Below are positions 13,444-53,095 of a stretch of 64,000 bases of DNA, in pieces. The translations under genes were made by a program, and so were the position numbers. Origin of the DNA: a virus (Duplodnaviria > Heunggongvirae > Uroviricota > Caudoviricetes); the IMG/VR virus record IMGVR_UViG_3300009500_000011, positions 104,585 through 168,584 of that record; one strand, 5' to 3'. The notes under the pieces are model-generated. The model saw nothing but the letters and a program-made list of their open reading frames with translations. It was not told where the DNA came from and searched no databases. Every line of letters begins with the position of its first letter. Position 1 is the stretch's first letter.

Positions 13444-14197
13444 CTCGCTTGGCGACCGAATGAAAACATATTATGAAGATGTGACGCGGCATTACTTGCC
13501 TCGGCGAACTCATACAATTATTCGGTTAGATGGAAAATCTTTTCATACGTATACAAAAAAATTAGCAAGACCATTTGATGCTGGTTTGATTGAAGATATG
13601 CAAAAAACCACAATTCGACTTTGTGAGAATATTCAGGGCGTTGTTCTTGGTTATACGCAATCTGATGAAATATCTCTTGTTTTATGTGATTATAAAGAAA
13701 AAGAAACTGAATCCTTTTTTAAAGGTAATATTCAAAAAATTTGTTCAGTATCTGCAAGTATGGCTACTGCATTCTTCAATGCTTTTAGACAAGCCCGTAA
13801 TTTTGAAGGTGGTCCAGCATTTTTTGATGCTAGAGTATTTACTATTCCAGAAAAGGTAGAAGTTCTTAATTATCTTATTTGGAGACAAAAAGATGCAACA
13901 AGAAATTCTATTCAAATGGCCGCACAATCTGTTTATTCTCATAAAGAACTTAATAAAAAGAAGTGGTCTGATTTAAATGAAATGCTTTTTCAGAAAGGTA
14001 TTAATTTTAATGATTATTCTTCTTCTGAAAAACGTGGTTCTTTAATTGTGAAAGAATATTTTGAAGGGGAAGCCTATGATAAGCGTAAGCAAGAAAATGT
14101 TATAGTTACTCGGTCGCGTTGGATTGTAGAACCTGAAACACCTCTTTTTACTGCTGAAGAAAATAGAGATTTATTTGAAAGGTATTTATATAAATAA
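13436..14197 (+). CDS. tRNA-His guanylyltransferase (Thg1)-like protein, 3'-5' nucleotidyltransferase
   Basis: LGDRMK.YE....., IIRLDGKSFHTYTK, GYTQSDEISLVL. These are the hallmark Thg1/TLP motifs. Confidence 0.85.
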   Translation: MNDSLGDRMKTYYEDVTRHYLPRRTHTIIRLDGKSFHTYTKKLARPFDAGLIEDMQKTTIRLCENIQGVVLGYTQSDEISLVLCDYKEKETESFFKGNIQKICSVSASMATAFFNAFRQARNFEGGPAFFDARVFTIPEKVEVLNYLIWRQKDATRNSIQMAAQSVYSHKELNKKKWSDLNEMLFQKGINFNDYSSSEKRGSLIVKEYFEGEAYDKRKQENVIVTRSRWIVEPETPLFTAEENRDLFERYLYK

Positions 14198-17235: not shown

Positions 17236-17371
17236 TTTTGAGTTGCGCTAGAATAAAGTTACTTCGTCTGTAAAACGAGGAATCCGGGTTCGAGTCCCGG
17301 TCGGAATCTAACGATTTCGGTACTTTAATCGGTAAAATCCTAAACACTTTGTTCGCTACCTTCGCTCAAAA
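17236..17371 (+). ncRNA. Y-RNA-like / YrlA-like element with tRNA-mimic module, embedded in the tRNA array
   Basis: TTTTGAG/CTCAAAA terminal helix. TTGCG...AAAGT pairs with ACTTT-gtt-CGC, followed by TACCTTCG, the same 3' box as element B. TTACTTCGT box. Anticodon-like arm CTTCGT-CTGTAAA-ACGAGG. Perfect T arm CCGGG-TTCGAGT-CCCGG. Confidence 0.55.
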
Positions 17372-29682: not shown

Positions 29683-30408
29683 ATGATTAATACATATGTT
29701 GTAGGGGACGTACACGGTTGCTACGATTCTCTAATCGAATTACTAGAATTGGTTAATTTTAATGTTGACCGAGATATGTTAATAAGTGTTGGCGACCTTG
29801 TAGATAAGGGTCCAAAAACCAAGGAAGTTTTAGACTTCTTTATGAAGTATGGTTATCCTGTGGTTAGAGGCAATCATGAAGATAAGATTGCTCGTCTTGC
29901 CAAGGGAAACAAGATTAAGATTAACTCTGAAATTCAAGATACTGTTGAACAACTTGGAGAAGGTTGGCAGGAAACGTATGGCCTATTTCTTCAATCAATG
30001 CCATTATATCTTCCGTTTGAAGATGCTTTGGGTAAGGGATATATTGTCCACGGTGGCGTTGCACCAGACCTTCCTATCGAAAGGCAAAGTTCTAATTTCT
30101 TAATGCGTCTTAGAACGTGGCCTTTTGAAGAATATGTACGTGGGGTAGAGGCAACTCAACCTCCTTGGCAGACTGAATATAGAGGTCACTTAGGAACAAT
30201 ACTTCACGGGCATATTCCAAGTGCAGGCGTAATGTATGCAGGTTCTGAAAAGCATGGAAATCCCAATGTATATTCATTGGATGGTGGATGTGTTTACGGG
30301 AATGACCGTCCTTGGGGCGGTAGTCTTCGGGCTATTAAACTTGATACTAGAGAGATTTTCTCTGTTCCCGGTAATCAAGAACAAACAGAACATTATAACA
30401 GTTTGTGA
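29683..30408 (+). CDS. PPP-family Ser/Thr phosphatase / ApaH-like diadenosine tetraphosphatase
   Basis: GDVHGC, GDLVDKGP, RGNHE motifs (lambda-phosphatase/ApaH family). Confidence 0.85.
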   Translation: MINTYVVGDVHGCYDSLIELLELVNFNVDRDMLISVGDLVDKGPKTKEVLDFFMKYGYPVVRGNHEDKIARLAKGNKIKINSEIQDTVEQLGEGWQETYGLFLQSMPLYLPFEDALGKGYIVHGGVAPDLPIERQSSNFLMRLRTWPFEEYVRGVEATQPPWQTEYRGHLGTILHGHIPSAGVMYAGSEKHGNPNVYSLDGGCVYGNDRPWGGSLRAIKLDTREIFSVPGNQEQTEHYNSL

Positions 30409-30888: not shown

Positions 30889-31186
30889 TGATAAGTGCGA
30901 AACATGCGATGGTAAAGGTACATGGGAAGTACCCTGGGATGAAGTTGATGATGCAACCAAGGCTATGCTTGGTGGCATTGATGACTTGATAAGTAAATTT
31001 CCTGGTTCTAAATTGGGTCCATTAGTTTATAATTGTCCTGATTGTCAACAAACTGGTTCGCAAGCCGTTCGAGAACAATGGTCAATAAATCGTTTAGACC
31101 CTAAAAAACATGAGTATGTTTTTCAATGTACTGATGGTGACCCTTGTTGGGAATGTAAAGCAGAGAAAAAAGAGCATTTAAAATGA
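30878..31186 (+). CDS. small zinc-binding protein (DnaJ-type CxxCxG-like)
   Basis: CETCDGKG and CPDCQQTG motifs. Confidence 0.4.
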   Translation: MNIDDKCETCDGKGTWEVPWDEVDDATKAMLGGIDDLISKFPGSKLGPLVYNCPDCQQTGSQAVREQWSINRLDPKKHEYVFQCTDGDPCWECKAEKKEHLK

Positions 31187-32001
31187 TTGATTATACAACA
31201 AAACCGGATTTAGGAAAATTATCTGAATCAGAATTTTTTGATTTAGATAATCCGCCTTTTGATATTCAAAAACATTGTTTATATTCAGTCATATCTGGTT
31301 CAAAAGCATATGGATTAGATACGCCTACAAGCGATACTGATATTCGTGGAGTTGTATATTTACCAGAAAGAATGTTGCTTGGTTTAGGTAGATTTGAACA
31401 AATTGAAAATCAAAGCAAAGATATTTGTTATTACAGTCTACAAAAACTTTTTAATTTGGCATTAAAAAATAATGTTCATGCAATGGAAATGCTTTGGATG
31501 CCAAAAAGAACGGTTAACTTTATACATCCTTTATTTGAGCAAGTTCTAGATAATAAAAATTTATTTATGTCTAAACGCATTGCATATACTTGTGGTGGAT
31601 ATGCTTTCCAACAAGTTAAGGTTGCCTTTACAAAGATGAAAAATAAGACTGGTAGAGTTAGTTTATTAGAACAATTTGGCTATGATACTAAATTTATGAG
31701 TCATAGTATTCGTATTTATAGAATGGCCCGTGAAGCATTAGAAACAGGTTTTCTAAATGTCTATCGACCTGATAGAGAGTTTTTACTTGATGTTAAGGTT
31801 GGTAAATATAAACTTGAAGATATTGTTGTTATGGGTAAAAATTCAGAAGGTAAAGATACTTTTGTTGGTGGATTATTAGCAGAAGAATTGCGACTTTTTA
31901 ATGAAGCACTTGCAAAAACAAAATTACCAACCGACCCTCCTTTCCAAAAAATTGAAAATCTTTTAATTAAAGTTCAAAAAGAAGCTTTATCTTTTAATTA
32001 A
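31183..32001 (+). CDS. Pol-beta superfamily nucleotidyltransferase (RlaP/PF10127-like)
   Basis: ISGSKAYGLDTPTSDTDIRGV matches the GS..YG......SD.D..G NTase signature. This family is often annotated as RNA-repair associated. Confidence 0.7.
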   Translation: MIDYTTKPDLGKLSESEFFDLDNPPFDIQKHCLYSVISGSKAYGLDTPTSDTDIRGVVYLPERMLLGLGRFEQIENQSKDICYYSLQKLFNLALKNNVHAMEMLWMPKRTVNFIHPLFEQVLDNKNLFMSKRIAYTCGGYAFQQVKVAFTKMKNKTGRVSLLEQFGYDTKFMSHSIRIYRMAREALETGFLNVYRPDREFLLDVKVGKYKLEDIVVMGKNSEGKDTFVGGLLAEELRLFNEALAKTKLPTDPPFQKIENLLIKVQKEALSFN

Positions 32002-37310: not shown

Positions 37311-40300
37311 ATGCCAGAAGGCTTTGTTTCAGTCCCAGATAATAGTGATGCAAGTATAACAGTTAAGGTAGTTGATACAAATGAAATAAGCATTATATCA
37401 ACTACCTTAACCACAGCAGTTACAGGTGCAGGTATATTTACCGTAACGCCTGCATCTATTACTGGAATTGGTATCGGAACACCATTAATTGTTGACACTC
37501 TTGTAAGTGGTGTACAAGAATCTGTCAATGTTCTTTCTATTGTTGGTTCAAGTTTTTCTGCAAAATTTGCATATGCTCATGCTTCAGGTGTTCCATTAGT
37601 ATTAAATGTAGAGCGCCAGAATATGAGTATAGCAGACCCAACAACTTATGGCAATATTGCTAAGGTTGCAAGTGGTACTGCATCTATAACTGATATTGGT
37701 TTAACTGTAAGACCTATTCCTACTTCGATTCCTGCTGGGACAAATACCATTGGAAATGTTGCTATAACTAGTCCTAATGGTGCTGCTGCTGGTATATATG
37801 GCCTTGTTAATCCTTATGGTACTACTCGTATTAGTGGAGAGCCAATAGGTTTATTTACTGATACTTTTGATGGTACAACTTTTGATACTGTAAATCGTTG
37901 GAATACGCCTACTGTGGTTAATGGTGGTGCATATTCACAAAATAATGGAGATTTAAGTTTAACAACTGGTCTTACTGCTAATGCTCAATCTATTGTTACA
38001 TCGCAACCAAATTTTGTGCATGTAGGTAGTAGTTTTCTTGAATATACAACAGTTGTTCAATTAGAATCTAGTCCAATAGCTACAGGTTGTCATCGTTATT
38101 GGGGAACAGGAACTTCTCCAACAGTTATTTCTGCGACAAACCCTGTTCAAAATGGATATGGATTTGAAGTAACAACTACAGGAACAATGAATGCAGTTGT
38201 TTATGCATCTGGAACTAAAGTTGGTTCTTATCCATTATCTATTCCAACGGATGGACTTCCACATAGATATGCAATTATTATTCGTTCAGATGTTGTTTTT
38301 TATTATGTAGATAACATCGAAGTTCCAGTTGCCGAATTTATGTTTGTTTTACCATCTGTACAAACTCTACCAATAAGATTTCATATTTTAAATGGAACTT
38401 CTGCTTTAACAAAAGCGCCAATTCTTTATGCTTATGGTGTTGCTATGTCCGATACGGCAGAAAATTCATCTGCTATTTCTGATGGTACTTATCCTTGGCG
38501 TAAGGCTTCTGTTGAAAATATAAATCCTAGTTCATCTGATTATGGGTTAGTAACTAGAAATATTCCCAATAGTACATCTAATCAAGCAATCGTTTCAAAT
38601 GATTTATCTACGACAGGAACTATACAAAATTTAAATGATACTGTTTCTTTAACATTAAATGGTATATCAAGTTGGATTGCTGAATTACAAGGAACTTGGA
38701 CAGGAACAGTACAATTTGAAGCATCAATTGATGGTATTAATTTTGTACCATTACGCGGCAGACAAAGTGGTATGGGTGGAAACACTATACTTTCAACTCA
38801 GGTTACAAGTACAAATGGGTATTGGCGTGGTAATGCTGCTGGGTTTAATATTTTTAGAGTACGTGCAATAACTGCTTTAACTGGTCCTGCAACTATAAAT
38901 ATTAAAGCAAGCATTGGTACAGATGCTGTCTTTTTAGATGCAGGTTTACCTCCAGGAACTGATTATATCGGTCAGGTTGGAGGAACTACCACAACATATC
39001 CTGTTACAGCCGGTGCAGTAATTACAACTACTCCAGGAACTACTGGTGTATCCGTTTATTCAGATACATATGGTAATATGAGAACTATTGTTTCTGATTA
39101 TGTTCAAACAGGAACACTTGTTAATTTAAATGATACTATTGTTGTAAATCAAAATGGTGGTTATACTGCTTGGAATGTATCATTATCTGGAACTTGGACT
39201 GGCGTAGTAACTTTTGAAGGTTCAGTAGATGGTACTAATTGGCAATCTATTACGGGTAGATTAGCCGGTGTAGAAAGTGGTCCTTTATATAATTCAACAG
39301 GTCTTAACGGTGTGTATAGAGGAAATGCTGCTGGTCTTCAATTCAGAGTAAGATTAAGTGCTATAACTAGCGGAAGTGTTACTGTTACAATTCGTTTAGG
39401 TCAAGGACCTTATGGAGTTTTCTTAAATTCTGCATTACCTGTTGGAACTAATAATATCGGTAGTATTTCTACTAGCACATTTCCTTCAACAGGCGTAAAC
39501 AATGCCCCAGGTACAGTTGGACAGACGCTATTATCTGATAGTGACGGTTCATTAAGAATACATGCTGCTGATATTTATTCTTCGGGAACAATTAATACAT
39601 TAGGCGCTACTGTTCAAATACAACCTGTTGGTCATGCTACTGCTTTAATTAATATTCAAGGAAGTTTTGTTGGTACGTTTCAATTTGAAGTTTCATTAGA
39701 TAGTTTAACGTATTATCCTATTGAAGTCAAACAAGTAGGTGTTTCAACAACGACATTATTAACAACCTCTAATGTTGGTGGAATTTTTAGAGGAAATATT
39801 GCCGGGGCTTTATATTTTCGTGTTCGCGCAACAAGTTGGACTTCAGGAAGTGCTACAGTTTATATTAACGGTTCACATGCTACTGCCCCTGTATTTTTAG
39901 ATGCTGGTCTTCCTATAGGTACAAATAACCTTGGAAGCACACAATTAGCGGACGGAACAAATAGTTCTCAATTAGCCAAGGTAACATCTGATGGGGCTCA
40001 ACTTGTTGCTATAGATTCAACAACATCATTGCCTGCTGGAACTAATTCAATTGGAAATGTTACATTAAATAACGACCTTACCTATACTGGAACTATTCTT
40101 GCCGGAACACAATTAAGCCATATTATTATACCTTTAAATGGTGCTAATACTATCGGTGTTAGCTGGACAAATAACAGTACAAATGCTATTTTACAATTTC
40201 AAGCAAGTGTTGATGGAGTAAACTATGTAGGTATTGTTCCTTATGAATCAAGTGTTTTGAATTCTTATGTTTCTACAGTATCGTCAGTATTATTTAACGG

Positions 40301-40886
40301 GCGTGTAAGTGTTGCTGGTTATAGTTACTTTAGAATTAGTAATCAATCCGCAACAGGTAGTGTTGGTTCAAATACAATCAATGTTAATTTTACTGTTAGT
40401 GGTAATTCTTCTATTGTAACTCTTGTAGACCCTATTCCACCTGGTACAAATGCTATCGGTACTGTTGGAGTAACAGCATTGCCATCAATACCTGCTGGTG
40501 GTAATACAATTGGAAATGTAAAATTAGTTGATACTGCTGGAAGCAATCAAGCTTCTGTAAATACAAATGGTTCTCTTTCGGTTTTATCTTACAATGATTC
40601 AACTACGACATATTATTATGCTACCGCAGCTAGTGCAAATGTTCTTGTTAAAAATGGTCCCGGCAGATTAATCTCTGTTACTGTTTTTAGTGCAAGTACA
40701 GGCATTTATGGTATTCTTTTTGATACTAATGGAACTCCAGTAGCAGGAACAACCACTCCATTAGTTGTTATACCTGCTTATGCCCCGGCAGGATATACAG
40801 TTTTTTGTGATATTCCTTTTGCAAATGGTTTGACTATTTTTGGAACCGGCTCAACCGGACCTACATATACTGTAAATTATCGTTAA
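37311..40886 (+). CDS. tail-fibre-like protein with four tandem ~120-aa repeats
   Basis: 1191 aa, G/T/S/N-rich. Recurring LP.GTN.IG linkers and four repeated modules between about nt 38610 and 40460. Confidence 0.7.
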   Translation: MPEGFVSVPDNSDASITVKVVDTNEISIISTTLTTAVTGAGIFTVTPASITGIGIGTPLIVDTLVSGVQESVNVLSIVGSSFSAKFAYAHASGVPLVLNVERQNMSIADPTTYGNIAKVASGTASITDIGLTVRPIPTSIPAGTNTIGNVAITSPNGAAAGIYGLVNPYGTTRISGEPIGLFTDTFDGTTFDTVNRWNTPTVVNGGAYSQNNGDLSLTTGLTANAQSIVTSQPNFVHVGSSFLEYTTVVQLESSPIATGCHRYWGTGTSPTVISATNPVQNGYGFEVTTTGTMNAVVYASGTKVGSYPLSIPTDGLPHRYAIIIRSDVVFYYVDNIEVPVAEFMFVLPSVQTLPIRFHILNGTSALTKAPILYAYGVAMSDTAENSSAISDGTYPWRKASVENINPSSSDYGLVTRNIPNSTSNQAIVSNDLSTTGTIQNLNDTVSLTLNGISSWIAELQGTWTGTVQFEASIDGINFVPLRGRQSGMGGNTILSTQVTSTNGYWRGNAAGFNIFRVRAITALTGPATINIKASIGTDAVFLDAGLPPGTDYIGQVGGTTTTYPVTAGAVITTTPGTTGVSVYSDTYGNMRTIVSDYVQTGTLVNLNDTIVVNQNGGYTAWNVSLSGTWTGVVTFEGSVDGTNWQSITGRLAGVESGPLYNSTGLNGVYRGNAAGLQFRVRLSAITSGSVTVTIRLGQGPYGVFLNSALPVGTNNIGSISTSTFPSTGVNNAPGTVGQTLLSDSDGSLRIHAADIYSSGTINTLGATVQIQPVGHATALINIQGSFVGTFQFEVSLDSLTYYPIEVKQVGVSTTTLLTTSNVGGIFRGNIAGALYFRVRATSWTSGSATVYINGSHATAPVFLDAGLPIGTNNLGSTQLADGTNSSQLAKVTSDGAQLVAIDSTTSLPAGTNSIGNVTLNNDLTYTGTILAGTQLSHIIIPLNGANTIGVSWTNNSTNAILQFQASVDGVNYVGIVPYESSVLNSYVSTVSSVLFNGRVSVAGYSYFRISNQSATGSVGSNTINVNFTVSGNSSIVTLVDPIPPGTNAIGTVGVTALPSIPAGGNTIGNVKLVDTAGSNQASVNTNGSLSVLSYNDSTTTYYYATAASANVLVKNGPGRLISVTVFSASTGIYGILFDTNGTPVAGTTTPLVVIPAYAPAGYTVFCDIPFANGLTIFGTGSTGPTYTVNYR
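38610..40460 (+). repeat. four tandem ~360-490-nt coding repeats in the tail-fibre-like gene
   Basis: Protein modules begin TGT(I/L).NLNDT / SGTINTLGAT / TGTILAGTQ. Each contains W(T/V)G.(V/F).FE.S.DG...(W/F/Y) and RGNAAG...FRVR, and ends LP.GTN.IG. Confidence 0.7.
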
Positions 40887-41542: not shown

Positions 41543-44500
41543 ATGTCGCTACTCTTGTTGTATAACCGTAAACTTTTTCAGTCTACATTAACTAATTCTA
41601 ATTTAACTTCTGATTCAAATTCAAGAAAAACTTATTTTTCAAGAACTAATGTAGATTCAAGTTTGTTTTCTGATTCTTCTGCTAGAAGTGCAAATTATAA
41701 TAGAGCATCATCAGATATATTCAACTTATCTGATAGTCTTTTGCGTAATACGTTTTATGCACGTAGTTTTCAAGAAATATATTCTTTTTTCGATTCATTA
41801 AATAGACAAGTTGATAACAGTAGAAGTGAATCAGAAATTTTTAGTACGATTGATATTCAAAATTTATCACGATTTTATAATCGTTCATCCACAGATTCTT
41901 TTAATTTTTCTGATAGTAATTCTCGGTTTTTAGATTTTGCTCGTCTTCAATCTGATGTTTTAATTTTTAATGACTTAATTAATCGTTCCACTAATGTAAA
42001 TCGTTCTATAACCGACCAATCTATAGAGATAGATTCTTTAACAAGACAAATTATTGATAATCGCCAAACTTCGGACGTATTCAATACTATTTTATCTTTT
42101 ACAGAACAGCAGTTTTTATCTAGGTCAACTACCGATGGATTAAGTTCTTTTACAGATTCTTCATCGTATAGTCGAGTTTTGCCACGTTCTGTTATGGATA
42201 CTTTTAGTTTTTCGGATTCAAATTCTATTTCTCAATTACTTCTAAGAACATTTAGTGAAAGTTATTCTTTCAATGATGTTCTTAGTAATTCTGGAACTCA
42301 TATCGCTTTTTTAAGTGATGTATTAACAAATTTTGTAGATTCAATAAGCGCCGAACAGTTTGTTTCAAGAACAATGTCTGATAATCTAACGACATTAGAT
42401 TTAGTAACTTCAGTTAAGACTTTTTATAGATTAAATTCAGATAATACTAACTTTGCAGATGCTATCTCTTCTGCTAATATTTTAAATAGATTTAATATTC
42501 AAAATTTAAATTTTAATGATTCACTTAATAATCAAAATATTTTTAATAGAAATAATAGTGATTTAGTTAATAATTTTAATGATTCCACTTTAATATCTCA
42601 ATTTTTAAATCGAACCTCAAATGAGGTGTTTTCAACATCTGATATTTTATCTTTGGCGCAATTTTTGTCTCGTAATCCAACAGATATTCTTACAACGTTA
42701 GATAATAACGGTAGAAATATCTTTATTTCTAAATCAGTAATTGATTCTATTTTAACTTTCGATAGTCTTCAAAGCACGAAGATTGCTAATTTAAATCTTC
42801 AAGAAACATTTAGCTTTAGTGATGTTCTTTTAAGAAATATTATAGATTTCCGTACAAATTCAGACAGTTTTGCGTTTGTTGATTTTGTCAATAATTATAA
42901 TATATTTACAAAATCAATTGTTGAATCTTTCCAAACAAATGATTTGCTAACAAGGGAGTATATCTCAAATCAAAATCTTCAAGAAAACTTTAATTTTTTA
43001 GATATATTATCTGAAAGTCAATTTTTACAAAGACAATGTTCAGAACAATTTAATTTTATTGATGGTATATTGAGAGAAGTAATCATTAATAGGGCCATGA
43101 ACGAAACTCTATTGGAATCAGATGACATTACTACTGCTTTAGTTTTCTTTAGGAATATAAATGAACAATTCTCTACCGCAGCATCTGTAAGTTATGTACA
43201 TTCATTCGTTAGAAATTTGTTAGAAAATTTTGCAACTTCTAATTCCATTAGCAGGGCTCTTATTTCTCCAAGAAATACTTCTGATTTCTTTAATCAAATT
43301 GTCGATACTTTAAATTCATATAAAATTGCCAATTTTAATCTTGATGAAACTTTTGCATTTAATGATTCTTTATCTCAAATGTCTCTGGTTTTTAGGAATT
43401 TTTCAGATTTATTTAGTTTTTTTGATTTTACAACAAGTAATGCAATAATTCCTAGAAATATTGAAGAATCATATCCTATAAGTGATTCATTGTCCAATAA
43501 CAATTTGTTTTCAAGACTTTTCGAAGAAGAATTTAATTTTACTGATGCTGTTAATATAAGTCAGAGTTTGGCGCGTCAATTCTTAGATAGTTTTATTTTT
43601 TTTGATAATGTTTCAACAAATAGTTCAGGCGGTTTGTTTTTAAGAGTAATATCAGATGTTTTAAATACTAATGATTCTAGTGAAATAAATCAATTTTTAA
43701 ATCGTGAAAATACCGATACATCATTAACTAGTGATTCGCTCCAAAACTCCAATATTTTAAATAGACAATTTCAAGACTTATTAAGTATAGCAGATACCTT
43801 AACTTCTACTAATGAATTTAATAGATTTTTTTCTGATTTGTTGCAAACTAATGATGCTGCAAATTCAAATTACGTTTATAATTCAAATTTATCTGATAAT
43901 TTAAACACAAGTGATTCGCTAAATAGATTTTTTCTAAATATTGCAAACTTAGCAGAAACATTTACAACAACAGATTCCAACTCCAGAGAATCTATTTTGG
44001 CGCGAAGTCTATCTGAAACATTTTCTCTATTGGATTTATTAACTAGAGTTTTATCTAAAGTAAGGTTATTAAACGATAATCTTCCCTTTACTTTTGATTC
44101 ACTTGCAACATATAGTACGTTTTTTAGAGAACTGCAAGAAGAGTATATATCATCCGAAGAATTAATTAACGAATCTATTTATAAAAGGCAACTTGAAAAT
44201 ACATTTACAACTTTGGATGAGTTGATGCGTGTTTTACTTATTGCTAGGGAAGTATTTGAAGTCGGAGAAATATCAGATACTGTTGCAAGTAAAGCAGTTA
44301 TTCTAAGATTTGTAGAAGAATTTTTTGAATTAGTAGATAATATTGCCTTAAATCAAAGAATTAATCGTAGTTCTGAGTATCAAAGTAACTTCTCGGATAT
44401 TCTAAATAGAGAAGTTATATTAGAAAGATTTTTGTCTGATTCAAGTCAATTTTTTGACAATTCTTTACTTCAAAAAGTTGGTGCAAGATTTTTCGTTAAT

Positions 44501-44878
44501 TTATTTGATGAATACTCATTTACTGATGAACTTATTGGGACAAGTTTGTTAGAAAGATTTTCTCAGGACATATTACAAACAGCCGATGAAGTTGCTCGTT
44601 TAGTAAATAATAATAGAAGTGTAGAAGAAATTTTTGAATTCTTAGATATTGCTTCGCGTAAACCAGTATTTAAAATTGGTCAAAGAGTTAAATTCAGATA
44701 TAATGGTGCCTTATGTCAAGGTAAAATTATTTTAAGATATTATGCAACAAATCCTAGTGAAGGCATTAGATATCAAGTTAATGTTGATTTTTGTAGTAAT
44801 TGGAAAGCAATTGGAAAAACAACACGAATTGATGTAGATTTAAATGATTTATTATCAATTAATCCTCAGAATTGGTAA
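41543..44878 (+). CDS. giant tandem-repeat protein (~50 x 20-aa units), putative fibrous virion protein
   Basis: Period-20 repeat R-x2-S-[DE]-x-F-x-F-x-D-S-x8 over about 1000 aa. Unique C-terminal domain ending PQNW. Confidence 0.6.
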   Translation: MSLLLLYNRKLFQSTLTNSNLTSDSNSRKTYFSRTNVDSSLFSDSSARSANYNRASSDIFNLSDSLLRNTFYARSFQEIYSFFDSLNRQVDNSRSESEIFSTIDIQNLSRFYNRSSTDSFNFSDSNSRFLDFARLQSDVLIFNDLINRSTNVNRSITDQSIEIDSLTRQIIDNRQTSDVFNTILSFTEQQFLSRSTTDGLSSFTDSSSYSRVLPRSVMDTFSFSDSNSISQLLLRTFSESYSFNDVLSNSGTHIAFLSDVLTNFVDSISAEQFVSRTMSDNLTTLDLVTSVKTFYRLNSDNTNFADAISSANILNRFNIQNLNFNDSLNNQNIFNRNNSDLVNNFNDSTLISQFLNRTSNEVFSTSDILSLAQFLSRNPTDILTTLDNNGRNIFISKSVIDSILTFDSLQSTKIANLNLQETFSFSDVLLRNIIDFRTNSDSFAFVDFVNNYNIFTKSIVESFQTNDLLTREYISNQNLQENFNFLDILSESQFLQRQCSEQFNFIDGILREVIINRAMNETLLESDDITTALVFFRNINEQFSTAASVSYVHSFVRNLLENFATSNSISRALISPRNTSDFFNQIVDTLNSYKIANFNLDETFAFNDSLSQMSLVFRNFSDLFSFFDFTTSNAIIPRNIEESYPISDSLSNNNLFSRLFEEEFNFTDAVNISQSLARQFLDSFIFFDNVSTNSSGGLFLRVISDVLNTNDSSEINQFLNRENTDTSLTSDSLQNSNILNRQFQDLLSIADTLTSTNEFNRFFSDLLQTNDAANSNYVYNSNLSDNLNTSDSLNRFFLNIANLAETFTTTDSNSRESILARSLSETFSLLDLLTRVLSKVRLLNDNLPFTFDSLATYSTFFRELQEEYISSEELINESIYKRQLENTFTTLDELMRVLLIAREVFEVGEISDTVASKAVILRFVEEFFELVDNIALNQRINRSSEYQSNFSDILNREVILERFLSDSSQFFDNSLLQKVGARFFVNLFDEYSFTDELIGTSLLERFSQDILQTADEVARLVNNNRSVEEIFEFLDIASRKPVFKIGQRVKFRYNGALCQGKIILRYYATNPSEGIRYQVNVDFCSNWKAIGKTTRIDVDLNDLLSINPQNW
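41600..44640 (+). repeat. ~50 tandem 60-nt (20-aa) degenerate coding repeats
   Basis: Consecutive 20-residue units such as RASSDIFNLSDSLLRNTFYA / RSFQEIYSFFDSLNRQVDNS / RSESEIFSTIDIQNLSRFYN / RSSTDSFNFSDSNSRFLDFA. Confidence 0.75.
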
Positions 44879-44904
44879 CTTTACAGTTTCTTTACATAGC
44901 ATTG

Positions 44905-44933
44905 TTGCAAATATTGGTATGCTTGTCTATAAT
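44905..44933 (+). promoter_or_regulatory. sigma70-type promoter for the Y-RNA-like array
   Basis: TTGCAA-17 nt-TATAAT. Confidence 0.55.
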
Positions 44934-45030
44934 CTCTAATAGAGTTGAAGCTGAAGGAAACGAAGCAGGTGGTTTAAATGCCATCGGAAGCAAGTGCAAG
45001 TCTTGCCATCTCTGCCATAAAAAACTAAAT

Positions 45031-45258
45031 AAATTTGAGTTGCGTTAGAGTACGGTTACTTCTTAATTGACATATACCTAATGTCCCACCTCAATAAAGG
45101 AGTAAAATCTTTTATTGGGCTAGTCACCTGAGTCGTGGTGAGACGCATTGTGCAAATGTTAGTGGAGGCTCGTAAAATAAGCCTAGAACTAAAAATTCTT
45201 AGACTTAAGATGTAAAAATCAAAAGTCGGTCCCGTACTTGCCCTCTTCTCTCAAATTT
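45031..45258 (+). ncRNA. Y-RNA-like element A (upstream of Ro60 gene)
   Basis: Terminal helix AAATTTGAG/CTCAAATTT. 5' TTGCG..AGTACGG pairs with 3' CCGTACT. Conserved TTACTTCTT box. Same architecture as elements B, C and the one at 17236. Confidence 0.55.
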
Positions 45259-45275
45259 ATTTTAAAAATTAAAAA

Positions 45276-45346
45276 CTTGGGTTGCGACAGATTACAGATA
45301 CTTCTTATATGGAATAAAAAAGCTGTATTCGCTACCTTCTCCCGAG
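45276..45346 (+). ncRNA. Y-RNA-like element B (minimal hairpin version)
   Basis: CTTGGG/CCCGAG terminal helix. Internal loop tt / TACCTTCT. GCGACAG pairs with CTGT-att-CGC. ATACTTCTT box in the apical region. Confidence 0.55.
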
Positions 45347-45362
45347 TATAAATTTTATAATA

Positions 45363-45456
45363 TTTAAATTGCGTTAATTACAGATACTTCTTGTATATTG
45401 GTTCGAGTCCATTAAGTGTAGTCGGTACACAACTGTAGTTGTTCCATTCGTTTAAA
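45363..45456 (+). ncRNA. Y-RNA-like element C with tRNA-like T arm
   Basis: ATTTAAA/TTTAAAT terminal helix, TTGCG...TTACAG pairing with CTGTAG, ATACTTCTT box, TGG-TTCGAGT-CCA T-arm mimic, GTGTA-gtcgg-TACAC hairpin. Confidence 0.5.
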
Positions 45457-45464
45457 TTTTATTT

Positions 45465-45498
45465 AATCCTTGGGAATATATTTCTCAAGGATTTTTTT
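45465..45498 (+). terminator. intrinsic terminator closing the Y-RNA-like array
   Basis: AATCCTTGGGA...TCTCAAGGATT followed by TTTTT. Confidence 0.6.
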
Positions 45499-45519
45499 GT
45501 TGTCATAAAGGAAAAAAGA

Positions 45520-47205
45520 ATGAAATACAATACTAAAACAGTAAATGCTGGTCCAGGAACAAAAATGATAAATCTTGCAGGCGGAGAAGCTTTTAAAGTT
45601 GATAATCGTACTGCATTATATTTAACTTCTGCAACTTCTTTAGGTGGCGGTCAAGGAAATAAATATTATGTTTCTGCAAATCAAGAATACAAAAATATTC
45701 TTGAACTAATTGAAAAGGTTTCCGCTCAAGACCCAGAATTTATTTTCCAATTGGCTGCATATTGTCGTCAAGATTTATACCTTCGTAGTATTCCAACGGT
45801 ATTATTTATCGAAGGTATTCGTGCAATGCATAAGCAAAAAAAGGCCAATGCACCATATCCAGTAGATGCATCTAAGTATGCAAATGCTATTTTTGGTCGT
45901 GCTGATGAAATTGTTGAAGCAGTTGCATATTGGCTTGGAGTTGAAGGCCATCACAAATTGCCTTCCCCTCTTCGTAAATCTTTGACCATTGCTTTAAATT
46001 CATTTGATGAATACCGCTTGCTTAAATATAATCAAGAAGATAAGCAAGTTACATTTAAAGATATTGTTCGTCTTGTGCATCCAGAACCAAAAACTGATGT
46101 GCAAAGTGCAATTTTCAAATACTTCATCAAGGATGAAATCAGTCCAGAATTAATGCCAAAGGCAACTGCCCGCAAGGCTTTGCTTTCACGTACTCAATTT
46201 GATGAAGAAGCACAACGCTTGATGAGAGATTCATCTGCTACTTGGGAAACTGTAATTGCTAAATTCGGTTCGACTAAAGAAATTTGGGAAGCAGTTATTC
46301 CAAATATGGGATACATGGCTTTATTACGTAATCTTAATAATTTTCTTAAAAAAGAAGTAGATTTAGATTTAGTAATTCCTCGCCTTGTGAATCCGCAAGA
46401 AATTCGTAAAAGCAAGCAATTGCCTTTCCGTTTTTACACAGCAATGAAACAACTTGGTGTAGAAGATAACAATAAGAATTCTACGATGACATATTATGGA
46501 TATTCCGATTCAGTAAAAACAGCATTTGAAAAATGGCGTAATGTAAATTCTAGCGATGGAATTTCTCGTTTACGTAATGCTCTTGGTGTTGCTATGAATA
46601 TTGCAGTAGAAAATGTTCCTCACCTTTCAGGTCGTACCGTTGTTGCGGCAGACCTTTCTGGTTCTATGAGTCAACCTCTTAATAACAAATCAAATGTAAC
46701 TTATCGTGAAATCGCTTGTATTATGGCTGGTATTGCTGGTTCAATAGCACCAGATAATGTAATTTGTGGATTTGGTTGTTCATTTGCTGTTGCTAAAAAA
46801 GGCAAAGATATTCTTGAAACTGCAAATAATATTGATAAATTAAATGTTGGAATGTCAACGGATGCATGGCGTATTCTTGATTACTTGCTTACAAACAAAA
46901 TTTTTGTAGATAGAGTCATGTATTTTACAGATACACAATGTTATAATTCATATGGGGGCGCAAATTTAAACGAACTTTGGAAAAAATACAAAGTTCTTTG
47001 CCAATCAACTGGTAAAAAAGTTCCTGTTCTTTATGAAGTAAATCTTGCAGGTGGTAATACATCTAGTTTTAATTCTGAACAAAGAGTTGCTACCATTGGT
47101 GGATGGTCTGAAAGAATTTTTGATTTAATTACTACTTATGAAACTGACCCTCGTCAAGCAATAAGTAAAATTAAAGAAAAATATTCAGATTTAGTATCTG
47201 TTTAA
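45520..47205 (+). CDS. rsr: Ro60-related protein (TROVE domain + vWA), Rsr-like
   Basis: Start trimmed to MKYNTKT behind AAAGGAAAAAAG. TROVE-like helical repeat region (FIFQLAAYCRQDLYLRSIP). C-terminal MIDAS AADLSGSMS. Confidence 0.85.
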   Translation: MKYNTKTVNAGPGTKMINLAGGEAFKVDNRTALYLTSATSLGGGQGNKYYVSANQEYKNILELIEKVSAQDPEFIFQLAAYCRQDLYLRSIPTVLFIEGIRAMHKQKKANAPYPVDASKYANAIFGRADEIVEAVAYWLGVEGHHKLPSPLRKSLTIALNSFDEYRLLKYNQEDKQVTFKDIVRLVHPEPKTDVQSAIFKYFIKDEISPELMPKATARKALLSRTQFDEEAQRLMRDSSATWETVIAKFGSTKEIWEAVIPNMGYMALLRNLNNFLKKEVDLDLVIPRLVNPQEIRKSKQLPFRFYTAMKQLGVEDNNKNSTMTYYGYSDSVKTAFEKWRNVNSSDGISRLRNALGVAMNIAVENVPHLSGRTVVAADLSGSMSQPLNNKSNVTYREIACIMAGIAGSIAPDNVICGFGCSFAVAKKGKDILETANNIDKLNVGMSTDAWRILDYLLTNKIFVDRVMYFTDTQCYNSYGGANLNELWKKYKVLCQSTGKKVPVLYEVNLAGGNTSSFNSEQRVATIGGWSERIFDLITTYETDPRQAISKIKEKYSDLVSV

Positions 47206-51670: not shown

Positions 51671-52426
51671 ATGCGCGCTCTTGGTTTAAAATCTTTAGTA
51701 GACCCACGTAGGGACCAATATCCAAAATTAATTTTAAAAGATGGTCCAATTCCTTCAAAAGTTGAATATGCTCCTTTATATCCTCCGGTTGATGACCAAG
51801 GAAATTTTGGTACATGTGTTGCATTTGGAACCGGCAAAGTCTTTGAATACTTTTATAATAAGCAGAACAACAAACAACTTTTAATTTCAAAACGTGCCCT
51901 TTTTTCAGAAATTAAACAAAATTTTTACCCTCATGATACTCAAGATGATGGTGCCCAAGTTTCTGATGGATTACAAATATTATCTTTAAATTACATCTTA
52001 GAATCTGATTTTCCTTATGAACCGGCTGGAGATTTTAGTCAGTTTTTACATGGGGTTCCAGCAAATCTTGAAAAAACAGATTTTAAAATAAAACATTTTG
52101 TATCGGTAAATCCCGTCATTGATGATATGAAAAATGCATTATTTCATCAAGGCCCTTTAGCTATCGGAACATCCTTTGCAAACGAATGGATGGAGATTGG
52201 TAGTGATGGTCGTTTACCTGGTTCTAATCTTACATCTGCTGGTGGACATTGCATGTCTATTACCGGATATGATGATGACTTTGTAAATCTAGATGGTTCA
52301 AAAGGTGCTTTCCATTATATTAACAATTGGTCAACTGCTTGGGGCCAAGAAGGATATGCTTGGTTGCCATATAACGTTGATACAGACTTTTTTCCAACCG
52401 ACCTTTTTACAGTTCAAGTTCAATAA
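51671..52426 (+). CDS. papain-like cysteine peptidase (C1 family)
   Basis: QGNFGTCVAFG (Gln/Cys), GGHCMSITGYDD (His), NNWSTAWGQEGYAW (Asn/Trp). Complete catalytic signature. Confidence 0.85.
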   Translation: MRALGLKSLVDPRRDQYPKLILKDGPIPSKVEYAPLYPPVDDQGNFGTCVAFGTGKVFEYFYNKQNNKQLLISKRALFSEIKQNFYPHDTQDDGAQVSDGLQILSLNYILESDFPYEPAGDFSQFLHGVPANLEKTDFKIKHFVSVNPVIDDMKNALFHQGPLAIGTSFANEWMEIGSDGRLPGSNLTSAGGHCMSITGYDDDFVNLDGSKGAFHYINNWSTAWGQEGYAWLPYNVDTDFFPTDLFTVQVQ

Positions 52427-52437
52427 TAATCAAACTG

Positions 52438-52466
52438 TTGACAAAACAGAGGAAATTGATTATACT
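52438..52466 (+). promoter_or_regulatory. sigma70-type promoter for the tmRNA transcript
   Basis: TTGACA-17 nt-TATACT. Confidence 0.6.
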
Positions 52467-52471
52467 ATAGA

Positions 52472-52602
52472 TATGGTCGTAAGAGACTAGTCGCGGTCTG
52501 AAAAAAAGCCGCCTTGCGTTGACCCTCTTATCACGCCCGTAAACTCGGGACTTAGTAAGTCCTTCCAGAACAAGTCTAATAAACACTCTGGAAGGCAAAC
52601 TT
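52472..52602 (+). ncRNA. structured 5' leader or co-transcribed RNA upstream of the tmRNA
   Basis: Lies between the predicted TSS and the tmRNA 5' end. 9-bp hairpin CCTTCCAGA/TCTGGAAGG and hairpin GGACTT/AAGTCC. Confidence 0.35.
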
Positions 52603-53054
52603 GGGATATAGCAGTTTTGACTGGAAAACCAAGGGCTATAAGACAAGCAGTAGAGCATTAGGCTACTATAAAAAATGCAAACAAACAATCGCAGACTTTT
52701 CTGTAACTGGGTTCAACGACTTCATCGCTCGCGAAGCGGTCGCTGCCTAAAACCTCTCTAGGCTCGTAGAGTAATACGGGCTAAGGGAAACATAGTTTCC
52801 CTACCTTATCCGTGGGGCCACACGGAAGGTTCGATTCACGTTTCAGAGGTTACTACTCTGTAGCACCATAAACGAGAATATTACCCTTATGAATAAGGGC
52901 GACCGGAGGGCTAGGTCGTAAATGGCGCTCATTGTAGGCTGAAATTTCCTACAAAACCAAGTCCTGGTTGAGGGAATAAATATCAGGAAGCTTGTATAAT
53001 CAAATAGTTCGAAGATTCTAGGACTCGGGGGGCGGCTCCCCGAATATTCCACCA
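52603..53054 (+). ncRNA. ssrA: tmRNA (SsrA) candidate, one-piece
   Basis: 5' GGGATAT pairs with 3' ATATTCC-ACCA and gives G3-U70. H-type pseudoknot AGTAG-a-GCATT-agg-CTACT-ataaaa-AATGC at 52649-52678. Then a 12-nt A-rich spacer ending ATC and resume codon GCA at 52691. The tag frame reads ADFSVTGFNDFIAREAVAA, with stop TAA at 52748-52750 in hairpin GCCTA/TAGGC. GGAC precedes the T stem TCGGG/CCCGA. Own promoter and terminator. Confidence 0.75.
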
Positions 53055-53063
53055 AATAATAAT

Positions 53064-53095
53064 AAACCTTCAATGTAAAAGTTGAAGGTTTATTT
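53064..53095 (+). terminator. intrinsic terminator after the tmRNA
   Basis: AAACCTTCAA...TTGAAGGTTT followed by ATTT. Confidence 0.6.

What the first reader, a model, noticed from the sequence alone, without database searches (positions are those of the whole stretch)
52438..53095. Phage-encoded tmRNA with derivable 19-residue tag ADFSVTGFNDFIAREAVAA
An ORF-poor 650-nt unit runs from a consensus promoter to a terminator. It contains the diagnostic tmRNA parts in canonical order.
- Acceptor GGGATAT/ATATTCC with the G3-U70 alanine identity pair, then ACCA.
- GTTTTGAC after the acceptor (E. coli has GATTCGAC).
- An H-type pseudoknot with the same S1-S2-S1'-A-rich-S2' layout as E. coli PK1.
- A 12-nt A-rich spacer ending ATC, then resume codon GCA (E. 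coli has ..AGUC GCA).
- A tag ending AVAA, with the stop codon inside a hairpin.
- GGAC preceding the T stem.
Two points are odd: the length (452 nt) and the non-canonical T loop (GGCGGCT).
A phage tmRNA could rescue ribosomes during host mRNA destruction. It could also redirect tagged products, given the ClpC-like gene in the same window.
Basis: partly seen in the sequence, partly recalled or inferred. Interest (0 to 1): 0.75.

Follow-up and report, generated by a model that had tools for sequence, protein, structure and literature searches.

The report
Phage tmRNA gene with unusual T-arm
A large phage carries its own complete ribosome-rescue RNA (tmRNA) encoding a 19-residue degradation tag; phage tmRNAs are already known, but this one belongs to a structural subtype that the standard detection program ARAGORN cannot see.

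Summary
Rfam's tmRNA model (RF00023) matches 52603-53054 (+) end to end. The score is 45.7 bits, just under the curated cut-off of 47, with E = 6e-15 for the whole window. ARAGORN finds nothing.

- a 7-bp acceptor stem with G3·U70, then ACCA;
- the GAC/GGAC junction and helix 2;
- an H-type PK1;
- a 12-nt spacer with A at -4, then resume codon GCA;
- the tag ADFSVTGFNDFIAREAVAA and UAA;
- a promoter and a terminator.

The "odd" T-arm is a 6-bp stem with loop GGCGGCU, paired with a D-loop side 2 nt shorter than in E. coli. It recurs in other viral tmRNAs that score 60-110 bits, and in the chromosomal tmRNAs of Eremiobacterota. ARAGORN misses all of them. Replacing the arm in silico with a canonical one restores an ARAGORN call at the same coordinates.

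A near-identical phage differs at 5 positions in the RNA, all compatible with the structure. A distant relative, L082, has a homologous tag with 5 synonymous codon differences.

Verdict: a genuine and probably functional phage tmRNA. It is a new member of a known kind. The ClpC idea is unsupported. Interest is moderate.

The parts
52438..52466 (+). sigma-70-type promoter, TTGACA (52438-52443), 17-nt spacer, TATACT (52461-52466)
   Evidence: 11 of 12 consensus positions; both hexamers are invariant in the sister phage L002/L003, while the 17-nt spacer carries 4 substitutions.
52473..52602 (+). about 130-nt 5' leader of the precursor. The start is approximate (no mapped transcription start). It ends with U at -1, before G1.
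   Evidence: several hairpins, z = -2.44. No Rfam family matches it. Removal by RNase P is inferred, not shown.
52603..53054 (+). predicted mature tmRNA, 452 nt, with encoded CCA
   Evidence: RF00023 model positions 1-374 of 374, 45.7 bits, E = 6.1e-15 for the window; the MFE fold recovers the architecture, z = -3.95.
52603..52609 (+). acceptor stem, 5' strand GGGAUAU (G3 of the G3·U70 pair)
   Evidence: G3·U70 is present in 59 of 59 class members. The window differs from the class majority on both strands at 4 positions and still pairs.
52610..52621 (+). D-loop analogue AGCAGUUUUGAC. It is 12 nt against 14 nt in E. coli, and has AG where E. coli has GG.
   Evidence: side-by-side comparison with E. 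coli ssrA (L090:294-656).
52621..52648 (+). helix 2, 5' strands: 2a 52621-52626, 2b 52633-52639, 2d 52643-52648
   Evidence: MFE fold; helix 2a pairs in 96.9% of cells, against 52-75% in slid controls; a G to A change in L002 turns a G·U pair in helix 2b into A-U.
52649..52678 (+). pseudoknot PK1: S1 AGUAG/CUACU, L1 A, S2 GCAUU/AAUGC, L2 AGG, L3 AUAAAA
   Evidence: same layout as E. coli PK1 and as L082, L009, L014, L089, L074 and L031, with different stem sequences.
52679..52690 (+). single-stranded spacer AAACAAACAAUC, with A at -4 and UC at -2/-1 as in E. coli (UAGUC)
   Evidence: A at -4 in all 14 class members tabulated and in E. coli. Its role in frame setting comes from the literature (PMC3968760).
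52691..52750 (+). tag reading frame: resume codon GCA, then ADFSVTGFNDFIAREAVAA, then stop UAA (52748-52750)
   Evidence: against L082, the 13 aligned codons are 4 identical, 5 synonymous and 4 conservative replacements.
52751..52989 (+). structured body in the position of helix 5 and PK2-PK4. It has several stable hairpins, including 52784-52802 and 52883-52899. The pseudoknots are not confidently assigned.
   Evidence: a compensatory CCC/GGG to CUC/GAG change in hairpin 52883-52899, and an A-U to G·U change in hairpin 52784-52802.
52990..53024 (+). helix 2, 3' strands (2d 52990-52995, 2b 53004-53010, 2a 53016-53021), then the conserved GGAC (53021-53024)
53025..53043 (+). T-arm UCGGGG-GGCGGCU-CCCCGA. 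It reads as a 6-bp stem plus 7-nt loop, or as a 5-bp stem plus 9-nt loop.
   Evidence: The same arm occurs in viral tmRNAs scoring 60-110 bits and in Eremiobacterota chromosomal tmRNAs. The swap test shows it explains ARAGORN's miss.
53044..53054 (+). acceptor stem 3' strand AUAUUCC, discriminator A (53051), encoded CCA (53052-53054)
   Evidence: 29 of the 32 tRNAs in the window also encode CCA.
53061..53094 (+). terminator hairpin AAUAAACCUUCAA...UUGAAGGUUUAUU with a U-rich tail, starting 7 nt after the CCA
   Evidence: z = -6.24, 0 of 200 shuffles fold as well.. The next promoter starts at 53097.

Best explanation
This is a complete, one-piece tmRNA (ssrA) gene carried by a large AT-rich phage. 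A sister genome is a 275-kb contig.

Proposed pathway:
1. Host RNA polymerase transcribes it from its own sigma-70-type promoter to an intrinsic terminator, as a roughly 620-nt precursor.
2. RNase P removes the roughly 130-nt leader at G52603 (inferred).
3. The short 3' trailer is trimmed back to the encoded CCA (inferred).
4. The tRNA-like domain is charged with alanine through G3·U70 and the A discriminator. It binds SmpB, presumably the host's since none is seen in this window, and enters stalled ribosomes with EF-Tu.
5. PK1 and the spacer, with A at -4, place GCA in the A site.
6. The ribosome adds the charged alanine followed by the encoded tag ADFSVTGFNDFIAREAVAA, and terminates at UAA.
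7. The hydrophobic -AVAA end marks the product for host proteases.

Shown here: homology, the architecture, structure-preserving substitutions, and conservation of the tag at the peptide level. Inferred: every biochemical step and the benefit to the phage. The likely benefit is to keep ribosomes free and recycle amino acids while mRNAs are being cut, which fits the surrounding island of tRNA, RNA-repair and Ro60 genes.

The T-arm (6-bp stem, loop GGCGGCU) and the shortened AG-containing D-loop side are a natural variant of the tRNA-like domain, not decay.
For: - Full-length RF00023 match at 52603-53054: 45.7 bits, E = 6.1e-15 window-wide.
- The MFE fold recovers the acceptor stem, helix 2 and the T-arm. 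z = -3.95.
- PK1, the spacer and the resume codon have the E. coli layout, and A at -4 is conserved across the class.
- The sister phage L002/L003 has the same gene. Its 5 differences inside the RNA are one compensatory pair (2 positions), two G·U/A-U exchanges and one loop change.
- The promoter hexamers are invariant while the spacer between them varies.
- The same T-arm is found in five viral tmRNAs at 60-110 bits and in about 43 Eremiobacterota chromosomal tmRNAs.
- A search by the 5' end alone found that 14 of 15 resolvable viral tmRNAs have a 6-bp stem with loop UGCGACU or GGCGGCU.
- Across 59 distinct class members, G3·U70 is present in 59 of 59. The T stem is 100% paired with 4 pair types at the outer pair. 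Helix 2a is 96.9% paired, against 52-75% in slid controls.
- The tag is homologous to that of L082, with 5 synonymous codon differences.
- ARAGORN calls a standard tmRNA at these coordinates once the arm is made canonical.
- Phage tmRNAs are documented (PMC7162821, PMC4131195, PMC12484599).
Against: - The score is 1.3 bits under Rfam's gathering threshold, and ARAGORN gives no call.
- The T loop lacks U54 and U55, the sites of m5U and pseudouridine, and the T stem has an extra pair. Binding by SmpB and EF-Tu is therefore assumed rather than known.
- No SmpB was found in the window or in any related locus.
- PK2-PK4 could not be assigned.
- Only one near-identical genome and one distant relative are close enough to test the body of the RNA.
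- The host is unknown, and there are no expression data.
- Part of the class set was gathered by its T-arm or by acceptor pairing, so those two features are partly true by construction.
Confidence: 0.85

Rival explanations
1. It is an inhibitor or decoy. The RNA mainly soaks up host SmpB (and possibly AlaRS or EF-Tu) and so shuts down host trans-translation instead of performing it. This has been proposed for the tRNA-like-domain-only molecule of mycobacteriophage DS6A.
For: A DS6A-like molecule strongly inhibits tmRNA, perhaps by titrating SmpB (PMC4131195, PMC11915505). The variant T-arm might be poorly accommodated on the ribosome (inference). No phage SmpB was seen.
Against: Unlike DS6A, this gene keeps PK1, the frame-setting spacer with A at -4, a full tag frame ending in AVAA, and a stop codon. 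The tag is conserved at the peptide level against L082, with 5 synonymous changes. The same T-arm is the only tmRNA form seen in Eremiobacterota chromosomes, where it presumably works.
Confidence: 0.08
2. It is a decaying or non-functional copy of a captured tmRNA gene. It is still recognisable but is no longer used.
For: It scores below the Rfam threshold. The T loop is non-canonical. PK2-PK4 are unresolved. The leader is long.
Against: It has its own well-formed promoter and terminator, conserved in the sister genome. All 5 substitutions are compatible with the structure. The fold is significantly stable. The 'defect' in the T-arm is a shared feature of high-scoring tmRNAs. The tag frame is intact and conserved.
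Confidence: 0.05
3. It is a small protein gene (the 49-aa ORF at 52601-52750), or a tmRNA-derived integration (att) fragment, and not an RNA gene.
For: An ORF with a TTG start spans 52601-52750. Many mobile elements carry 3' pieces of ssrA because they integrate there (PMC11915505).
Against: Gene callers on two assemblies call nothing here. The front part of the ORF overlaps the acceptor stem, helix 2 and PK1, whose pairings covary. The element is a full-length tmRNA, not a 3' fragment. No integrase is adjacent.
Confidence: 0.02

Closest known systems
Bacterial one-piece tmRNA (SsrA; Rfam RF00023), e.g. E. coli ssrA
   Same: The order of parts is the same: acceptor stem with G3·U70 and ACCA, GAC/GGAC junction, long helix 2, H-type PK1 with an A-rich loop 3, an 11-12-nt spacer with A at -4 and UC at -2/-1, resume codon GCA, a tag ending in two alanines, a stop codon, a structured body, and a T-arm.
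   Different: - Length is 452 nt against 363 nt.
- The tag is 19 residues against 10.
- The T stem is 6 bp against 5 bp, and the loop is GGCGGCU against UUCAACU.
- The D-loop side is 12 nt against 14 nt, with AG in place of GG.
- The leader is about 130 nt.
- It is carried by a phage, and no adjacent smpB was seen.
Phage-encoded tmRNAs (Bxz1-type mycobacteriophages, Bacillus phage G, huge phages from metagenomes)
   Same: A full tmRNA gene in a large phage genome that is rich in tRNA and translation genes (PMC4131195, PMC7162821, PMC12484599).
   Different: Two of those studies state that they called their tmRNAs with ARAGORN (PMC7162821, PMC12484599), and the 2014 survey lists ARAGORN among its primary tools (PMC4131195). 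ARAGORN cannot detect this gene or its T-arm class. There is no sequence similarity to any phage in INPHARED.
   Same: The T-arm core GGGGGGCGGCUCCCC is identical to that of Eremiobacterota. The literature already records U54U55 to GG, U55 to G, and a possible sixth T-stem pair in some tmRNAs.
   Different: - Eremiobacterota tmRNAs are 357-363 nt and GC-rich, with the tag ANNEYALAA.
- The window RNA shares only the tRNA-like-domain features with them.
- The Caulobacter and mitochondrial examples are two-piece forms.
L082 tmRNA (metagenome contig Ga0116230_10365954, 407 nt)
   Same: It is the closest relative outside the sister phage. It has the same T-arm including the outer U-A pair, the same D-loop side AGCAG(C)UUUUGAC, and a homologous tag core DFS[VI][TQ]GFN[DE]F[IL]A.
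   Different: It is 74% identical in alignment. Both PK1 stems are different, the tag is longer at 24 residues, and the contig is GC-rich. The contig is only 1.1 kb, so its organism is unknown.
Mycobacteriophage DS6A tRNA-like-domain-only tmRNA
   Same: It is phage-borne and alanine-tRNA-like.
   Different: DS6A lacks a tag frame. This gene has a complete mRNA-like domain.

Membership tests
tmRNA, standard one-piece form (RF00023) | The 5' and 3' ends pair into a 7-bp acceptor stem followed by NCCA | tested here: met
   GGGAUAU/AUAUUCC plus ACCA. The unconstrained MFE fold recovers it.
tmRNA, standard one-piece form (RF00023) | Alanine identity: G3·U70 wobble pair and A discriminator | tested here: met
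   G52605·U53048, with A at 53051. G3·U70 is present in 59 of 59 class members. The requirement is taken from PMC3968760.
tmRNA, standard one-piece form (RF00023) | tRNA-like T stem-loop with the conserved T loop (U54 U55 C56 R57 A58) | tested here: inconclusive
   The stem is present but is 6 bp. The loop is GGCGGCU. It keeps C56, G57, U60 and the closing G-C pair, and lacks U54, U55 and A58. The same variant occurs in tmRNAs that pass Rfam's threshold, and it has precedents in the literature (PMC1168896).
tmRNA, standard one-piece form (RF00023) | Stemless D-loop analogue ending in GAC, opposite GGAC, leading into helix 2a | tested here: met
   AGCAGUUUUGAC and GGAC are present. Helix 2a pairs in 96.9% of cells across the class, against 52-75% in slid controls.
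tmRNA, standard one-piece form (RF00023) | Long helix 2 joining the tRNA-like domain to PK1 | tested here: met
   Segments 2a, 2b and 2d appear in the MFE fold. A G·U to A-U change in 2b is seen in L002.
tmRNA, standard one-piece form (RF00023) | H-type pseudoknot PK1 just upstream of the tag frame | tested here: met
   S1 is 5 bp, L1 1 nt, S2 5 bp, L2 3 nt and L3 6 nt (A-rich). Both stems differ completely from those of L082 while the layout is kept.
tmRNA, standard one-piece form (RF00023) | Internal frame starting at an Ala or Gly resume codon with no start signal, frame-setting nucleotides upstream, a tag of 8-35 residues with a hydrophobic/Ala-Ala end, and a stop codon | tested here: met
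   GCA follows CAAUC, with A at -4. The tag is 19 residues and ends AVAA, followed by UAA. The criteria are taken from PMC3968760.
tmRNA, standard one-piece form (RF00023) | Helix 5 and pseudoknots PK2-PK4 between the tag and the 3' strand of helix 2 | tested here: inconclusive
   The 239-nt body is highly structured, and two of its hairpins have supportive substitutions. The pseudoknots could not be assigned.
tmRNA, standard one-piece form (RF00023) | Score at or above Rfam's gathering threshold (47 bits) | tested here: not met
   The score is 45.7 bits. In the alignment the model's 7 T-loop positions and the 9 loop bases of the sequence are not aligned to each other. Its relative L082 scores 47.6 bits.
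tmRNA, standard one-piece form (RF00023) | Works with SmpB; alanylated; tags proteins | not testable with these tools
   No SmpB was found in the window (a weak test). The biochemistry needs experiments.
Two-piece (permuted) tmRNA (RF04321) | Gene order with the acceptor 3' half upstream of the 5' half | tested here: not met
   Only an 18.8-bit partial hit, against a cut-off of 47. ARAGORN's 'permuted' calls appear only at relaxed thresholds and have inconsistent ends.
Intron-containing tmRNA | Group I intron interrupting the T loop; genes of 545 nt or more | tested here: not met
   The T-arm is contiguous and the gene is 452 nt. No intron family was hit. The size criterion is from PMC11915505.
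tRNA-like-domain-only phage tmRNA (DS6A type) | No tag reading frame | tested here: not met
   A complete tag frame and PK1 are present.
Phage-encoded tmRNA | Located in a phage genome, not in host DNA | tested here: met
   The window has a phage primase, a Thg1-like enzyme, an RNA ligase and 32 tRNAs at 32.6% GC. Relatives of the flanking protease lie next to terminase and portal genes. The sister contig is 274,834 bp.

The most novel reading that the evidence does not exclude
The tRNA-like domain with a 6-bp T stem, G at position 55 and a shortened AG-containing D-loop side may mark a tmRNA lineage that moves among large phages in both one-piece and two-piece forms, and that is shared with Eremiobacterota. 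It lacks U54 and U55, so it would escape the usual T-loop modifications. It might also be tuned to a particular SmpB, or be protected from host factors that act on canonical T loops. On this reading, phages use it to replace the host's tag with their own long tag during infection. ARAGORN is blind to the class, so phage surveys that rely on ARAGORN would have missed its members.
Probability: 0.12. Interest if true: 0.6.

Novelty: new member of a known kind. Interest (0 to 1): 0.4.

Why it matters
Phage tmRNAs are already known, so the gene itself mainly adds one more well-defined example. It does come with a clear promoter, a terminator and an unusually long tag.

The practical point is a blind spot. 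The standard tool for calling tmRNAs in phage and metagenome annotation is ARAGORN, which Pharokka and the huge-phage surveys also use. It misses this gene, every viral relative tested, and the native tmRNAs of a whole bacterial phylum. The cause is the T-arm geometry. Counts of phage tmRNAs, and of bacteria "lacking" tmRNA, may therefore be too low.

The paired change in the T loop (U55 to G) and the D-loop side (G to A) is also a natural experiment on how the tmRNA elbow tolerates change, and so on how SmpB recognises it.

Tried and rejected
- **Known phages.** Megablast and blastn of the unit against 50,697 phage records found no match. A tblastn of a neighbouring flotillin-like protein found only distant hits.
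- **Exact match in IMG/VR.** The exact 34-mer of the T-arm was absent.
- **Protease-based locus search in IMG/VR.** Nothing was confirmed.
- **Neighbourhoods of five more distant protease homologues (L004-L008).** None has a tmRNA within 4 kb, so the synteny is not conserved.
- **Back-translated tag core scanned against IMG/VR.** 0 hits.
- **Window-specific 5' end scanned against IMG/VR.** 5 hits, none with a matching 3' end. My own estimate is that about 10 chance matches were expected.
- **SmpB search.** This is a weak test.
- **ARAGORN with relaxed thresholds.** It gave only spurious 'permuted' calls, although it did pick the same tag.
- **Heuristic search for PK2-PK4.** Only weak candidates came up, and I do not rely on them.
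- **Flanks of the GC-rich relatives L080 and L089.** The scan found DNA methylases and otherwise unknown proteins. That hints at mobile elements but is not decisive.
- **Readings considered and rejected:** permuted tmRNA, intron-containing tmRNA, the 49-aa ORF as a protein gene, an att-site fragment, and a ClpC link.
- **Not attempted:** a class-specific covariance model.
Full report

- A TTGACA-17-TATACT promoter lies at 52438-52466, matching 11 of 12 consensus positions.
- About 130 nt downstream, GGGATAT (52603-52609) pairs with ATATTCC (53044-53050). The third pair is G·U, and ACCA follows.
- After the 5' strand comes AGCAGTTTTGAC, then three helix-2 segments.
- An H-type pseudoknot follows: AGTAG/CTACT and GCATT/AATGC, with loop ATAAAA.
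- Then a 12-nt spacer, the codon GCA, and a frame reading ADFSVTGFNDFIAREAVAA before TAA.
- Near the 3' end are GGAC and the arm TCGGGG-GGCGGCT-CCCCGA.
- A strong hairpin at 53061-53094 (z = -6.2) ends the unit. The next promoter starts at 53097.

ARAGORN reports 32 tRNAs in the window and no tmRNA. Rfam at gathering thresholds reports only tRNAs. With E-value thresholds, RF00023 aligns over its whole length (positions 1-374) to exactly 52603-53054 at 45.7 bits. The cut-off is 47. E = 9.1e-17 on the 951-base stretch and 6.1e-15 on the whole window. The unconstrained MFE fold of the 452 nt recovers the end-to-end acceptor pairing, helix 2a/2b/2d and the T-arm. Its z-score is -3.95, and none of 100 shuffles folds as well.

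**2. What genome is this?**

The window is 32.6% G+C. It encodes:
- ribonucleotide reductase, a T4-type RNA ligase, a Ro60/TROVE protein and a papain-type protease;
- a phage-type primase, a tRNA-His guanylyltransferase, a nucleotidyltransferase and a phosphoesterase;
- 32 tRNAs, 29 of them with encoded CCA and ordinary GTTCRANTC T loops.

It has no close relative among 50,697 deposited phages and is not in IMG/VR. The protease just upstream (51671-52426) led to a 99%-identical protein on a 274,834-bp ENA contig (L002) and on a short Logan contig (L003). More distant homologues lie beside terminase and portal genes, or beside TROVE and tRNA genes. This is a large phage, and the tmRNA sits in an island of tRNA and RNA-repair genes.

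**3. The sister genome**

L002/L003 carry the same unit, scoring 45 bits. Inside the RNA they differ from the window at 5 positions:
- CCC...GGG becomes CUC...GAG in the hairpin at 52883-52899. This is one compensatory pair and accounts for two positions.
- A G to A change turns a G·U pair in helix 2b into A-U.
- An A to G change turns an A-U pair into G·U in the hairpin at 52784-52802.
- One change lies in a hairpin loop.

The two promoter hexamers are unchanged, while the 17-nt spacer between them has four substitutions. This is the pattern expected of an expressed structured RNA. The sample is small.

**4. The 'odd' T loop is a class feature**

*Viral contigs.* A scan for GGGGCGGCTCCC-N6-10-CCACCA gave 11 hits. 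Six have GGAC-NN-GGGGGGCGGCTCCCC-...-CTCCACCA. Five of those have a tmRNA-style 5' end 387-434 nt upstream. Those five score 60-110 bits against RF00023. The sixth matches the permuted model at 85 bits.

*Bacterial genomes.* The same arm, searched in one genome for each of 185,579 species, gave 54 hits. About 43 are the 357-363-nt chromosomal tmRNAs of Eremiobacterota (WPS-2, Vulcanimicrobiota), with the tag ANNEYALAA. The rest are unrelated coding sequence.

*Metagenomes.* A scan that excluded the Eremiobacterota version gave 16 more loci. They include one-piece forms of 354-434 nt and three permuted forms.

*Comparison with E. coli.* Set beside E. coli ssrA (fetched as L090), the class has:
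- a T stem of 6 bp instead of 5 bp. Read as a 5-bp stem, its loop is 9 nt (G-GGCGGCU-C) where E. coli has 7 nt (UUCAACU);
- a D-loop side of 12 nt instead of 14 nt;
- AG where E. coli has the GG.

*Removing ascertainment bias.* These sets were chosen by their T-arm, so I repeated the search using the 5' end only (GGGGNNGNGTAGTTTCGAC). Of 15 viral genes whose 3' end could be located, 14 have the 6-bp stem. Ten have loop UGCGACU and four have GGCGGCU. The class consensus is K-G-C-G-R-C-U. UGCGACU differs from a canonical T loop only at position 55.

*A possible co-variation.* In tRNA, U55 contacts G18, C56 pairs with G19, and U54 pairs with A58 (PMC7912444). The class keeps C56 with the second G. 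It changes 55 to G together with the first D-loop G to A. Positions 54 and 58 are U and A, or G and G. I read this as co-variation that preserves the elbow. That is an inference, not a demonstration.

*Precedent.* The variant is not unprecedented. Burks et al. 2005 (PMC1168896) recorded GG in place of U54U55 in a mitochondrial tmRNA, G55 in Caulobacter, and a possible sixth T-stem pair in Dehalococcoides.

**5. Why the detectors failed**

ARAGORN finds the E. coli control. It misses all the viral class members tested and all four Eremiobacterota chromosomal loci tested. For the window, changing only the loop to TTCGACT or TGCGACT while keeping the 6-bp stem still gives no call. Replacing the arm with a 5-bp stem plus TTCGAAT makes ARAGORN call a standard tmRNA starting at 52603. 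In the Rfam alignment, the model's 7 T-loop positions and the 9 loop bases of the sequence are not aligned to each other. That, plus the long insertions, is the likely reason for the 1.3-bit shortfall.

**6. Covariation across the class**

The set has 59 distinct sequences.
- G3·U70 is present in all 59.
- The acceptor stem pairs throughout, with up to four pair types per position. Acceptor pairing was used to find the 5' ends, so this result is partly by construction.
- The T stem pairs in 100% of cells, with four pair types at its outer position. That position was not part of any search pattern.
- Helix 2a, anchored between GAC and GGAC, pairs in 96.9% of cells. Slid-register controls give 52% and 75%.
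- The window's acceptor stem differs from the class majority on both strands at four positions and stays fully paired.
- PK1 keeps its layout in most members I could resolve (window, L082, L009, L014, L089, L074, L031), as in E. coli, and the stem sequences are unrelated.
- All 14 class members tabulated, and E. coli, have A at -4 before the assigned resume codon. Those five upstream nucleotides are known to set the frame (PMC3968760).

**7. The tag**

Relaxed ARAGORN runs pick the same frame. The nearest relative outside the sister phage is L082, a 1.1-kb GC-rich metagenome contig. Its tmRNA is 407 nt and scores 47.6 bits. It has the same T-arm down to the outer U-A pair, the D-loop side AGCAGCUUUUGAC, and the tag ANDFSIQGFNEFLAASATKELAVA. 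Thirteen codons align with the window's tag. Four are identical, five differ synonymously, and four are conservative replacements (V/I, T/Q, D/E, I/L). That points to selection on the peptide, which argues for real tagging and not just SmpB titration. Long tags of 19-27 residues are common among the viral members.

**8. Mechanism, and what is inferred**

Homology, architecture and conservation are shown. The rest follows from what is established for tmRNA (PMC3968760):
- processing by RNase P at G1, with U at -1;
- 3' trimming to the encoded CCA;
- charging by AlaRS through G3·U70 and A73;
- SmpB and EF-Tu delivery to stalled ribosomes;
- resumption at GCA, termination at UAA, and proteolysis through the -AVAA end.

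No SmpB was detected in the window or in related loci. The test was weak, and only 64 kb of about 275 kb is visible. The benefit to the phage is speculative. Freeing ribosomes and recycling amino acids while transcripts are being cut would fit the neighbouring RNA-repair genes. I found no Clp-type gene. The ATPase at 4283-5812 has one generic AAA domain.

**9. Comparison with what is known, and verdict**

Phage tmRNAs are documented in Bxz1-type mycobacteriophages and phage G (PMC4131195, PMC12484599) and in huge phages (PMC7162821). A tRNA-like-domain-only form exists in DS6A (PMC4131195, PMC11915505). This gene meets the defining features of a one-piece tmRNA, with three exceptions: the canonical T loop (it has a variant with precedents), a confident PK2-PK4 assignment, and the Rfam cut-off (missed by 1.3 bits). 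It is not permuted, not intron-bearing and not TLD-only.

I file it as a new member of a known kind. It is a real and probably functional phage tmRNA. Its main added value is to expose a T-arm subtype that routine ARAGORN-based annotation does not detect.

Noticed in passing
window 45439-47205 (+), and the gap 44879-45438, especially 44941-45014: The phage encodes a Ro60/TROVE plus vWA protein. In the 560-nt gap upstream there is a tRNA-like element with encoded CCA that ARAGORN did not call (RF00005, 32 bits, E = 4.5e-4). Its T loop reads UGCAAGU, again with G at position 55. In relatives L007 and L008, a weak YrlA (Y-RNA-like) hit lies about 620 nt upstream of the TROVE gene. This may be a phage Ro60 / Y-RNA pair.
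   Followed up: partly
L020-L073 (e.g. L071:5324-5680, L031:1443-1803): The chromosomal tmRNAs of Eremiobacterota (WPS-2/Vulcanimicrobiota), 357-363 nt with tag ANNEYALAA, all use the T-arm GGACCCGGGGGGCGGCTCCCCGG. ARAGORN missed all four loci I tested. ARAGORN-only pipelines may therefore score this phylum as lacking tmRNA.
   Followed up: partly
L010:9327-9578 (-), L075:1236-1487, L076:237-452, L088:1179-1393: One viral contig (L010) and three metagenome contigs (L075, L076, L088) carry two-piece (permuted) tmRNA genes, scoring 71-85 bits against RF04321. They have the same GGCGGCU T-arm as the one-piece forms.
   Followed up: no
L063:37-397 and L063:6372-6732: An Eremiobacterota MAG contig has two complete tmRNA genes 6.3 kb apart, identical at 356 of 361 positions. 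This could be a duplication flanking an inserted element.
   Followed up: no
window 18948-19021 (+): ARAGORN reports a tRNA of undetermined identity with a 4-base anticodon (atcg) and no encoded CCA. Rfam scores it at only 35.2 bits. It could be a frameshift-suppressor-like tRNA or a degenerate copy. Two other calls also lack CCA: 17242-17308 (67 nt) and 18606-18677.
   Followed up: no
window 11631-12935, 13436-14197, 29683-30408, 31183-32001: The window has a cluster of RNA-repair and tRNA-maturation genes: a T4-type RNA ligase 1, a tRNA-His guanylyltransferase (phrog_4717, E = 1.9e-84), a phosphoesterase and a nucleotidyltransferase. They are interleaved with the tRNA arrays.
   Followed up: no
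window 52473-52602: The tmRNA has an unusually long leader of about 130 nt, with several hairpins (z = -2.44). It is conserved in the sister phage with 2 substitutions and a 1-nt indel. One of the substitutions turns a C-G pair into U·G in the 9-bp stem at 52561-52595. No known family matches the leader.
   Followed up: partly
window 37311-40886 and 41543-44878 (+): Two very large ORFs (1191 and 1111 aa) have no Pfam or PHROG match at all.
   Followed up: no
L009:2162-2242: A tRNA next to the viral tmRNA in L009 scores 49.3 bits in Rfam but is not called by ARAGORN. The sequence is shown.
   Followed up: partly
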